Part shown: one piece after another, positions 18,917 to 19,220 of the stretch | Layout: each line of letters starts with the position of its first letter | Numbering within the stretch: the stretch's first letter is position 1 | Origin: a virus | Lineage: Duplodnaviria > Caudoviricetes | Strand: one strand, 5' to 3' | DNA length: 64,000 nt | IMG/VR virus record: IMGVR_UViG_3300007512_001664 | Coordinates: 32,001 to 96,000 of that record | Notes under the pieces: generated by a model | Database searches by the model: none | What the model saw: the letters and a program-made list of their open reading frames with translations, nothing else | What the model was told of the DNA's origin: nothing | Translations under genes and position numbers: made by a program

Positions 18917-19220
18917 AAGTTGGCGGGTACAACGCCTCCATCGCCTCACTACACTAGTGTGATGCTAGTTCGAGGACAGGAGTGGTAAGACACTTTACGC
19001 TTTATTGCAGGTGGCGCTGCAACAACTAAGAATTTTGAGACGATCGACGGATCGTCTCTGGTGTGACAGAATAAACATTCGCCTCGAGTGTTAATGTATG
19101 CCCAAGGAACTGACGGCCGAGTGGTTGAGGAACTGGAAGGTAGTTCGAAGTAGGGTGATCAAGATAAAATTTGATCGAGGACCCGAAAAGTTGCAGGTAA
19201 CCAAATAGTCCTGCCACCTT
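18917..19220 (+). ncRNA. candidate ~300-nt structured non-coding RNA of unknown family
   Basis: Closing helix TGGCGGG (18921-27)/CCTGCCA (19210-16), at least six internal hairpins, own promoter, 3' U-run, no credible ORF. Confidence 0.65.

What the first reader, a model, noticed from the sequence alone, without database searches (positions are those of the whole stretch)
18917..19220. ~300-nt multi-stem non-coding RNA with its own promoter
Seen: a GC-richer island after TTGCAC-16-TATAAT (18864-91), closed by a terminal helix (18921-27/19210-16, extendable) and followed by a U-run. Internal stems: 18953-59/18963-69 inside CCTC/GAGG, 19005-10/19017-22, a 9-bp 19037-45/19050-58, 19074-80/19086-92, 19130-35/19141-46 and 19153-62/19171-84. 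CGCCTC occurs three times and could pair with the GTGGCG loop as a pseudoknot. It lacks the tmRNA acceptor/T-arm and the RNase P P4 signature. Inference: an unassigned large phage ncRNA, possibly a ribozyme, scaffold or defence decoy.
Basis: partly seen in the sequence, partly recalled or inferred. Interest (0 to 1): 0.7.

Follow-up and report, generated by a model that had tools for sequence, protein, structure and literature searches.

The report
Two-module phage RNA with manA core
The flagged stretch is a real RNA gene of about 330 bases in a marine T4-like phage: its back two-thirds is a divergent relative of the known "manA" RNA (reported in a 2026 preprint to build RNA-only cages), and its front third is a separately folding RNA module that matches no Rfam family.

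Summary
In detail: every stem, the TTGCAC-16-TATAAT promoter and the U-run are at the stated coordinates. The reading "unassigned RNA" is only half right.

- **Back part.** 19038-19224 matches Rfam manA (RF01745) over the whole model at 47.3 bits, E 5.5e-11. That is below the 55.2-bit cut-off; canonical phage manA RNAs score 170-195.
- **Relatives.** 22 relatives in marine metagenomes keep the promoter, the manA-like core and the U-run. Two divergent relatives (L231, L110) show compensatory changes in P1, P2 and P5.
- **Front part.** 18918-19027 ("module A") is an independent five-helix motif supported by covariation, with no Rfam match.
  - In relatives it stands alone without manA or lies downstream of manA.
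  - In others an unrelated "module B" takes its place in front of an identical manA part.
- **Expression.** RNA-library contigs from four studies cover the manA part.
- **Layout.** Canonical manA RNAs start right behind their own promoters, so the front modules are inserts.

Most likely this is a modular, free or processed structural RNA rather than a switch for one gene. Its function is unknown. This scan has noted other enlarged manA-like phage RNAs on other DNA.

The parts
18864..18891 (+). Promoter: -35 TTGCAC (18864-69), 16-nt spacer, -10 TATAAT (18886-91)
   Evidence: Read directly. It is 100% identical in L003 although the upstream flank differs. TTGC(A/C)-N15-19-TATAAT is present in 20 of 20 relatives that have upstream sequence, with spacer substitutions.
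18898..18917 (+). 5' leader GAGTTATTTGACATGTTTTA: the first ~20 nt of the class-B module, retained in front of module A
   Evidence: The same letters open the class-B RNAs. They are absent from the short class-A forms. Only the window, L200 and L209/L003 carry them.
18918..19027 (+). Module A, an uncatalogued five-helix RNA motif. Ha 18918-21/19024-27; Hb 18922-25/18933-36; H1 18944-47/18972-75 (variable tip 18948-71); H2 18980-84/18991-95 (loop GGUAAGA); Hc 19005-10/19017-22 (loop GUGGCG)
   Evidence: Pair counts on alignment A6: 99.7% of cells paired; 5 pairs with changes on both sides (2 of 500 shuffles reach this); covariation score 0.223 against 0.127 in shuffles (0 of 500) and at most 0.08 with slid partners. 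No Rfam match at E up to 10. It occurs without manA in L215 and L217, and downstream of manA in L221.
19028..19036 (+). Linker AAGAATTTT between the modules
   Evidence: AAUUUU precedes P1 in both class A and class B. AAUUUUGAG also precedes module A in L221.
19037..19218 (+). Divergent manA-family domain. P1 19037-45/19050-58 (loop GACG); closing stem GGUG 19060-63/CACC 19215-18; junction GUGACAGAAUAA 19063-74; P2 19066-67/19096-97 and 19075-80/19086-91 (loop GCCUC); rebuilt P3 region 19099-19149; P4 19153-62/19171-84 with GAGG bulge 19177-80; J4/5 GAAAAGUU 19185-92; P5 19193-97/19210-14
   Evidence: RF01745 at 47.3 bits, E 5.5e-11, model positions 1-192 (3.7e-12). Core helices on A7: 98.5% paired; 11 pairs changed on both sides against 2.3 in shuffles (0 of 500). 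On A4, within the close group: 97.8% paired.
19219..19226 (+). U-run (T8) directly after the closing stem; a probable leaky intrinsic termination or 3'-end signal
   Evidence: A run of 5 to 9 T is kept in all 22 relatives although the sequence after it differs. The consensus terminator scanner did not call it.
19048..19226 (+). Stretch covered by contigs of four metatranscriptome runs from four studies
   Evidence: the contigs lie only on this stretch. One 114-nt piece in X17 is identical to the window, at depth about 100. The data are assembled contigs, so RNA ends and expression level are not shown.

Best explanation
This is a modular non-coding RNA gene of a complete 200-kb marine T4-like phage that lacks psbA.

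**Shown: layout.** A conserved sigma-70-type promoter lies upstream. If transcription starts about 7 nt behind the -10 hexamer (inferred, about 18898), the RNA is about 330 nt and ends at the U-run (19226). It has two independently folding modules joined by an AAUUUU linker.

**Shown: 3' module (19037-19218).** It is a divergent subfamily of the manA RNA. It keeps the family's P1 hairpin with a GACG loop, the closing stem, the GUGAC-GAAUAA junction, P2 followed by UAA, and P5 with its GGUA loop. The peripheral P3/P4 arms are rebuilt and there is an extra GAAAAG joiner.

**Shown: 5' module A (18918-19027).** It is a separate five-helix motif that matches no Rfam family. It is portable: in relatives it stands alone, follows manA, or is replaced by an unrelated module B.

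**Inferred: function.**
- Part of transcription stops at the U-run, or the transcript is cut at the AU-rich linkers. Either route would give a stable free RNA.
- Like the manA RNAs studied by cryo-EM, the core probably acts as a self-associating structural RNA through its loops. It probably does not sense a ligand for one particular gene.
- The 5' module would be an accessory domain carried by it.
- Read-through probably also supplies the mRNA of whichever gene lies downstream.
For: **Identity of the 3' module**
- RF01745 matches over the full model, E 5.5e-11.
- Relatives of the same subfamily score 45-52 bits.
- Compensatory changes occur in P1, P2 and P5 across three lineages, and in P4 and P3a within the close group.

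**Module A**
- Covariation supports all five helices.
- My own covariance model R1 finds one copy per phage record.
- It occurs without manA in two viral contigs of 119 kb and 69 kb.
- In L221 the order is reversed, with manA first.
- L204 (module A) and L193 (module B) carry identical manA parts.

**Free-standing RNA rather than a gene-specific switch**
- At least four different genes follow the U-run in relatives.
- 51 of 60 canonical manA cores have a TTGAC-N17-20-TAnnnT promoter-like pattern ending 18-29 nt before the junction, so they start at P1. 33 of the 60 are followed by a T-run.
- Another low-scoring manA variant lies between two tRNA genes.
- RNA-library contigs from four studies cover 19048-19226 only.

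**Self-assembly of the family.** The preprint 10.64898/2026.07.01.735769 reports manA 8-, 10- and 60-mers held by kissing loops and a GNRA-receptor contact. In the window, the P2 loop CCUC and the P4 bulge GAGG change together to CCUA and UAGG in L231. A GGAA loop becomes GAAA in one clade.

**Phage context.** Gp23 capsid protein at 298 bits; no Photo_RC (psbA) domain in the complete record.
Against: - The score is below Rfam's gathering cut-off. The covariance model cannot align the P3 and P4 arms, which carry the assembly interfaces in the solved manA RNAs, so oligomerisation cannot be carried over by homology.
- Only 11 nt separate the U-run from the next ATG. That gene has no room for its own promoter, which fits a 5'-leader role.
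- The RNA data are assembled contigs of runs chosen by shared words. They show neither ends, strand nor level, and DNA carry-over is not excluded.
- No RNA contig covered module A (possibly only because relatives carry other modules).
- The close relatives are 95% identical, so most pairs never vary.
- The terminator scanner did not call the 3' end.
Confidence: 0.7

Rival explanations
1. It is a cis-acting leader, riboswitch-like, as manA was first proposed to be. The manA fold (P5 plus closing stem plus U-run) would act as the terminator. The 5' module would compete for the 3' strand as an anti-terminator, setting read-through into the downstream gene.
For: - The RNA is on the same strand as the next ATG and only 11 nt before it.
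- A U-run follows the closing stem directly.
- RNAalifold on class A pairs 18984-93 with 19208-17 and 19012-25 with 19190-202.
- Duplex energy of module A with the manA 3' end is -26.1 kcal/mol against -20.2 +/- 2.9 for shuffles, p about 0.03.
- Weinberg et al. 2010 (PMC2864571) rated manA as probably cis-regulatory.
Against: - The downstream gene differs among relatives.
- Module B shows no significant complementarity to the manA 3' end (p 0.18), yet sits before an identical manA part.
- Module A also occurs alone or after manA.
- The long-range pairs show only one-sided changes and no compensatory ones.
- L221's U-to-G change at 19018 keeps hairpin Hc but would break the alternative G14-U107 pair.
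- Canonical manA RNAs often have their own downstream terminator hairpin.
- No ligand is known.
Confidence: 0.17
2. It is a primary transcript that is cut into two separate small RNAs with unrelated jobs: module A, and the manA-like RNA. They would be merely co-transcribed, as the members of a phage tRNA or sRNA array are.
For: - The modules fold autonomously and occur separately or in either order.
- The AU-rich single-stranded linker AAUUUU recurs at module borders.
- RNA contigs cover only the manA part.
- Another variant lies between tRNAs, where processing enzymes would release it.
Against: - No processing site has been mapped. The starts of the RNA contigs coincide with strain-variable positions of P1, so they are probably assembly break points.
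- Module A and manA are adjacent in at least three lineages (the window group, L110, L221), which hints at a functional link.
Confidence: 0.1
3. It is a wholly new large RNA class (ribozyme, scaffold or defence decoy) unrelated to any known family, folded as one domain closed by the 18921-27/19210-16 helix.
For: - No family reaches Rfam's gathering score.
- The minimum-energy fold of the single sequence does close the ends.
Against: - The manA match has E 5.5e-11 over the full model.
- The terminal helix is mismatched in most relatives and is incompatible with the covarying P5.
- The modules are separable.
- No known ribozyme family matches at E up to 10.
Confidence: 0.03

Closest known systems
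manA RNA motif (Rfam RF01745; Weinberg et al. 2010, PMC2864571; cryo-EM preprint Ren et al. 2026, 10.64898/2026.07.01.735769)
   Same: - P1 hairpin with a GACG-type loop.
- A 4-5 bp closing stem around a multi-helix junction.
- Junction GUGAC-GAAUAA.
- P2 followed by UAA.
- P5 with a GGUA...UCC loop, then CC-CC and a U-rich tail.
- Phage-borne, marine, and sitting behind its own sigma-70-type promoter.
   Different: - It scores 47 bits against 170-195 for canonical copies, and is under the 55.2-bit cut-off.
- The P3 arm (three hairpins, including a GUGGUG loop) and P4 of the seed are replaced by other helices.
- A GAAAAG joiner lies between P4 and P5.
- The junction has A where the consensus has U.
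- A 5' module and its leader (about 140 nt in the window) lie between the transcription start and P1, whereas canonical copies start at P1.
- The carrier is a T4-like phage without psbA, not a cyanophage or Photobacterium.
Other low-scoring manA variants found here (L026/L035 and L031 between tRNAs; L045)
   Same: They share the junction and the P1/P2/P5 core and score 52-60 bits. They behave as free-standing RNA genes.
   Different: Their middle arms differ again. They have no 5' module A or B. They are flanked by tRNAs or follow an ORF directly, instead of following the TTGCAC promoter.
Large phage-associated multimer-forming RNAs (ROOL, GOLLD, OLE). This comparison is from my own knowledge of the 2024-2025 cryo-EM literature, not from a tool result.
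   Same: They are ornate non-coding RNAs, often in phages or prophages and near tRNAs. They form RNA-only homo-oligomers whose biological role is unknown.
   Different: They are 500-800 nt single-domain RNAs with no sequence or structure relation to this one. None matched here.
wcaG RNA (RF01761), the other cyanophage motif from the same 2010 survey
   Same: It is a marine phage structured RNA of unknown ligand. In cyanophage S-CREM1 it lies a few hundred nt upstream of manA (PMC9964418).
   Different: Module A is not wcaG. There was no hit in the window at E up to 10, and only a 19-bit chance-level hit in L110.

Membership tests
manA RNA (RF01745) | Covariance-model score at or above Rfam's gathering cut-off (55.2 bits) | tested here: not met
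   The window scores 47.3 bits. Relatives score 45.0-51.9. Canonical copies score 170-196.
manA RNA (RF01745) | Statistically significant full-length match to the model | tested here: met
   E 5.5e-11 on 701 nt and 3.7e-12 on the 200-kb genome, over model positions 1-192. The control genomes give no hits.
manA RNA (RF01745) | P1 hairpin with a GA-containing loop directly before the closing stem | tested here: met
   GAGACGAUC-GACG-GAUCGUCUC. Five of eight P1 pairs change on both sides across the window group, L231 and L110, and 100% of cells are paired.
manA RNA (RF01745) | Conserved junction GUGaCUGAAUAA, P2 hairpin, then UAA | tested here: met
   GUGACAGAAUAA (one substitution), then P2 of 2 + 6 bp with covariation in L231, then UAAUG.
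manA RNA (RF01745) | P3 and P4 arms of the seed structure (in canonical copies, the hairpins with the GUGGUG, GNRA and UUACCA loops) | tested here: not met
   The model leaves both arms unaligned, marking the pairs as non-standard or as inserts. The region instead holds other helices: CCCAA/UUG-GG, ACGGCCRAGUGG, and a P4 with a GAGG bulge.
manA RNA (RF01745) | P5 hairpin with a GGUA...AAUCC loop, the 3' strand of the closing stem, and a U-rich tail | tested here: met
   GCAGG-UAACCAAAUAGU-CCUGC-CACC-U8. P5 becomes GUUGG/CCAAC in L110, with two compensatory pairs. The loop reads AGUCC instead of AAUCC.
manA RNA (RF01745) | Homo-oligomerisation into pentamer-based closed assemblies (preprint 10.64898/2026.07.01.735769) | not testable with these tools
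   No RNA 3D or complex tool is on hand. The only hints are the P2-loop/P4-bulge co-variation and a GNRA loop.
manA RNA (RF01745) | Position in the 5' UTR of a gene (Rfam type Cis-reg) | tested here: inconclusive
   The next ATG is 11 nt after the U-run. But the gene differs among relatives, and the unit has its own promoter.
Any Rfam 15 family, for module A (18918-19027) | A match at E up to 10 with permissive filters | tested here: not met
   Only chance-level miRNA, snoRNA and hairpin-ribozyme fragments appear, at 7-14 bits. tRNA and tmRNA are excluded.

The most novel reading that the evidence does not exclude
The manA-like core is a self-assembling RNA shell or ring, and the swappable 5' modules (A, B) are functional 'heads' that the phage mounts on it. 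That would make this a natural RNA nanoparticle with exchangeable cargo or display domains, made early in infection. Under this reading module A would itself be a new ligand-, protein- or RNA-binding motif that can also work alone.
Probability: 0.1. Interest if true: 0.9.

Novelty: new variant of a known kind. Interest (0 to 1): 0.6.

Why it matters
manA has been an orphan "riboswitch candidate" since 2010. A 2026 preprint reports that it builds RNA-only cages in vitro, with no known biology.

This locus adds four things:
- The family reaches beyond cyanophages, into T4-like phages without psbA, as a subfamily that Rfam's cut-off misses.
- In phages the RNA is laid out as a promoter-to-U-run unit whose downstream gene varies, which argues against a gene-specific switch.
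- The core is combined with exchangeable, separately folding 5' modules.
- One of those modules is a new covarying motif that also lives on its own.

That gives concrete constructs for testing whether accessory RNA domains ride on manA assemblies. It also gives seed alignments (A6, A7) for two uncatalogued RNA models.

Tried and rejected
- **Phage GenBank records.** blastn and megablast of the RNA and of 9 kb around it found no match.
- **Flanking proteins as anchors in IMG/VR.** This gave only one close relative.
- **15-mer and looser manA patterns in IMG/VR.** Beyond the known relative these gave chance coding hits.
- **Module B in IMG/VR.** No match.
- **Bacterial and archaeal genomes.** Neither module A nor the manA-variant signature is found in the 185,579 species genomes. 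The search was by exact pattern, so absence is weak evidence.
- **Module A as a degenerate manA copy.** The Rfam model gives no hit on 18895-19040, so I rejected this. The shared GUGGYG hairpin loop is kept only as a resemblance.
- **Module A next to canonical manA.** My model R1 finds none in 100 such loci.
- **Modules A and B as homologues.** R1 gives no hit on class-B loci. The similar 'closing helix plus three hairpins' layout in minimum-energy folds has insignificant z-scores of -0.6 to -1.6.
- **5'-3' switch helix.** Marginal for module A and not significant for module B.
- **Coding potential.** The 63-aa (-) and 36-aa (+) ORFs are broken by 1- and 2-nt indels in relatives.
- **RNA runs.** No contig lay on 18700-19047 or 19227-19400 in the four runs. 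Because these are contigs of mixed strains, this says nothing about RNA ends or about module A.
- **P3 region.** Two alternative pairings (the first or the second AACU with AGUU; a GNRA mini-hairpin) could not be told apart.

Full report
**Observation.** I read the region directly.
- TTGCAC (18864-69), a 16-nt spacer, TATAAT (18886-91).
- CCTC/GAGG around a small hairpin.
- TTGCAG/CTGCAA with loop GTGGCG.
- The 9-bp helix 19037-45/19050-58.
- 19074-80/19086-92 and 19130-35/19141-46.
- The bulged helix 19153-62/19171-84.
- Three copies of CGCCTC.
- T8 at 19219-26.

The stretch is GC-richer than most of its surroundings. It folds better than shuffles, z = -2.3. No ORF explains it: the small ORFs across it are broken by 1- and 2-nt indels in relatives.

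**Known family.** At Rfam's gathering thresholds the 64-kb window holds only two tRNAs. With E-value reporting on 18700-19400, 19038-19224 matches manA (RF01745) over the whole model: 47.3 bits against a cut-off of 55.2, E 5.5e-11. The same hit has E 3.7e-12 on the whole 200,819-bp virus record. The model aligns four elements:
- P1 with its GACG loop.
- The junction GUGAC-GAAUAA.
- P2 plus UAA.
- P5 with the 3' strand of the closing stem.

It leaves the two middle arms unaligned. In IMG/VR contigs picked up with a manA pattern, canonical copies score 170-196 bits. A small set scores 45-60 bits. One of that set (L026/L035) lies between two tRNA genes.

**Relatives.** The phage GenBank set has nothing similar. 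IMG/VR has one close relative, L003. One scan of metagenome contigs with the variant's junction 19-mer returned 24 loci, of which 22 are true relatives. All of them share:
- A TTGC(A/C)-N15-19-TATAAT promoter with varying spacer letters.
- A 5' module and an AAUUUU linker.
- The manA-like domain, at 95% mean column identity.
- CCACC followed by a run of 5-9 T.

The sequence on either side differs, and at least four different genes follow the U-run. Two more distant members came from other searches: L231 (=L221, 51.9 bits) and L110 (47.1 bits).

**Structure of the manA-like domain.**
- Within the close group, a manA-type model gives 97.8% paired cells and 3 pairs changed on both sides (reached by 4 of 500 shuffles).
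- Adding L231 and L110, the core helices (P1, closing stem, P2, P5) give 98.5% paired cells. Eleven pairs are changed on both sides against 2.3 in shuffles (0 of 500). The covariation score is 0.292 against 0.124, and at most 0.09 for slid partners.
- By eye, P4 also covaries: outer GGGU/ACCC becomes CGGU/ACCG, GAGU/ACUC and GGUU/AACU.
- The P2 loop CCUC and the P4 bulge GAGG become CCUA and UAGG in L231. That is a single event hinting at a tertiary or intermolecular contact.
- The P3 region is rebuilt relative to canonical manA, and I could not settle its pairing.

So the domain shares the manA core but fails two membership tests: the gathering score and the seed's P3/P4 arms. I therefore call it a divergent subfamily and not a catalogued member.

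**The 5' part.** Relatives carry one of two unrelated 5' modules.
- Class A is the window's type. Class B is about 160 nt. Rfam matches neither.
- L204 (class A) and L193 (class B) have identical manA parts, so the modules have been exchanged.
- The window keeps the first ~20 nt of the class-B leader in front of module A.
- A pattern scan for module A found it in three more viral contigs. In L215 and L217 it stands directly before a gene, with no manA anywhere in the 119-kb and 69-kb records. In L221 it lies after the manA variant.

On the 14-sequence alignment A6, a five-helix model (Ha, Hb, H1, H2, Hc) gives these figures:
- 99.7% of cells paired.
- 5 pairs changed on both sides (2 of 500 shuffles reach this).
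- 13 such cells against 2.9 in shuffles (0 of 500).
- Covariation score 0.223 against 0.127 (0 of 500).

Examples of the changes are H2 AGUG/CACU to GAUG/CAUC to AAUG/CAUU, and Ha U-A to U-G to C-G. A covariance model built from A6 (R1) gives these results:
- One copy in the window's genome, at 109 bits.
- One copy in each related record.
- None beside 100 canonical manA loci.
- A weak copy in front of L110's manA variant, at 23 bits, E 0.005.

Neither module A nor the variant's signature was found in the bacterial and archaeal genome set.

- The helix 18921-27/19210-16 uses the 3' strand of P5, which covaries as a local hairpin.
- It gains an A.C mismatch in 9 of 13 class-A relatives.
- It cannot exist where the modules are apart.
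- RNAalifold proposes other 5'-3' helices, but these show only one-sided changes.
- The complementarity is marginal for module A (p about 0.03-0.05) and absent for module B (p 0.18).

I therefore treat a 5'-3' switch as a minor rival.

**Layout compared with canonical manA.** Of 60 distinct canonical cores with enough upstream sequence, 51 have a TTGAC-N17-20-TAnnnT promoter-like pattern ending 18-29 nt before the junction. That places it immediately before P1. Of the 60, 33 have a T-run within 25 nt after the closing stem, and many have a further hairpin terminator. In the window the -10 hexamer ends 168 nt before the junction. The 5' modules are thus inserts into a family-wide promoter-RNA-U-run unit.

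**Expression.** The stretch or parts of it occur in marine and seawater DNA runs of several studies and in six RNA runs.
- I laid four metatranscriptome runs from four studies on the window. Contigs cover 19048-19226 only.
- They include a 114-nt piece identical to the window, at depth about 100.
- These are assembled contigs. Their left ends fall at strain-variable positions of P1, so they show presence in RNA libraries, not RNA ends or level.
- One X17 contig runs from the manA 3' end straight into another P1. That means either tandem copies or a joined RNA, and it is unresolved.

**Context.** The genome is a complete T4-like phage: Gp23 capsid protein at 298 bits, and no psbA. The neighbours are a carbamoyltransferase and sugar-nucleotide enzymes. 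The 171-aa and 245-aa flanking proteins have no Pfam family.

**Literature.**
- Weinberg et al. 2010 (PMC2864571) described manA as a probable cis-regulatory riboswitch candidate of marine samples, cyanophages and two gamma-proteobacteria.
- Ren et al. 2026 (bioRxiv 10.64898/2026.07.01.735769) report cryo-EM structures in which manA RNAs form octamers, decamers and a 60-mer icosahedral cage. These are built from pentamers held by kissing loops and a GNRA-receptor contact, with a conserved core and variable peripheral helices.
- That fits what is seen here: a conserved core with rebuilt periphery. It does not show that this variant assembles.

**Verdict.** It is a real RNA gene. The 3' two-thirds are a new, sub-threshold variant of the known manA family. 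The 5' third is a portable, covarying motif that matches no Rfam family. The most likely role is a free or processed structural RNA with an accessory module, with read-through feeding the next gene; the function itself is unknown. Earlier notes of this scan describe other enlarged or modular manA-like phage RNAs on other genomes. They agree with this reading but I did not test them here.

Noticed in passing
L190:2505-2662 (also L193, L194, L196, L202, L205, L208, L210): This is 'Module B', a GC-rich module of about 160 nt that is nearly invariant. It takes the place of module A between the same promoter and the same manA variant. It has no Rfam match. The minimum-energy fold closes it with CCGCGCC/GGCGCGG, and L196 carries a 28-nt insert.
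   Followed up: partly
window 19187-19218, as laid in RNA run X17: A 212-nt RNA-library contig joins the manA 3' end (…CCUGCCACC) through CCUU to the start of a manA P1 (GAGAUGGUUGACGG…). This means either tandem copies in a relative or a circular/permuted RNA.
   Followed up: no
L026:514-649(-) = L035:6346-6481(+); also L031: Another low-scoring manA variant (51.8 bits) lies directly between two tRNA genes. This suggests it is released by the tRNA-processing enzymes.
   Followed up: partly
L008, L010, L015, L024, L028, L030, L034, L050 (20-70 nt after canonical manA): A conserved hairpin, AGACCTAAGATGCAAC…GGGCAGATGGTCT plus a T-run, follows many canonical manA copies. It may be a dedicated terminator or a further small RNA.
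   Followed up: no
window 19005-19022 compared with canonical manA (e.g. L048, L011): Hairpin Hc of module A (UGCAG-GUGGCG-CUGCA) resembles the CAG-GUGGUG-CUG hairpin inside the P3 arm of canonical manA. The window's manA variant lacks that arm.
   Followed up: partly
L110:1018-1305(-), viral contig of 163,965 bp: This is a much more divergent composite of the same kind. A weak module-A-like domain (23 bits with my model) is followed by a manA variant (47.1 bits) with the same GAAAAG joiner and the same ACGGCCAAGUGG element.
   Followed up: partly
window 18332-18847 (+): A 171-aa protein with no Pfam family has a C-terminal CxxC…CxxC pattern. Its homologue's 3' end precedes the RNA promoter in many relatives. 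L003 has an extra 90-aa ORF between the two.
   Followed up: no
window 19238-19975 and 20078-20782 (+): The downstream 245-aa protein has a signal-peptide-like N-terminus and no Pfam family. The 234-aa 'MGMFDEIIVP…' protein has homologues directly after the stand-alone module A in L217, and one gene further on in L215/L230.
   Followed up: no
whole genome G000: The complete 200.8-kb T4-like phage (Gp23 present) has no psbA/Photo_RC gene. It is probably not a cyanophage, although manA has so far been tied to cyanophages.
   Followed up: partly
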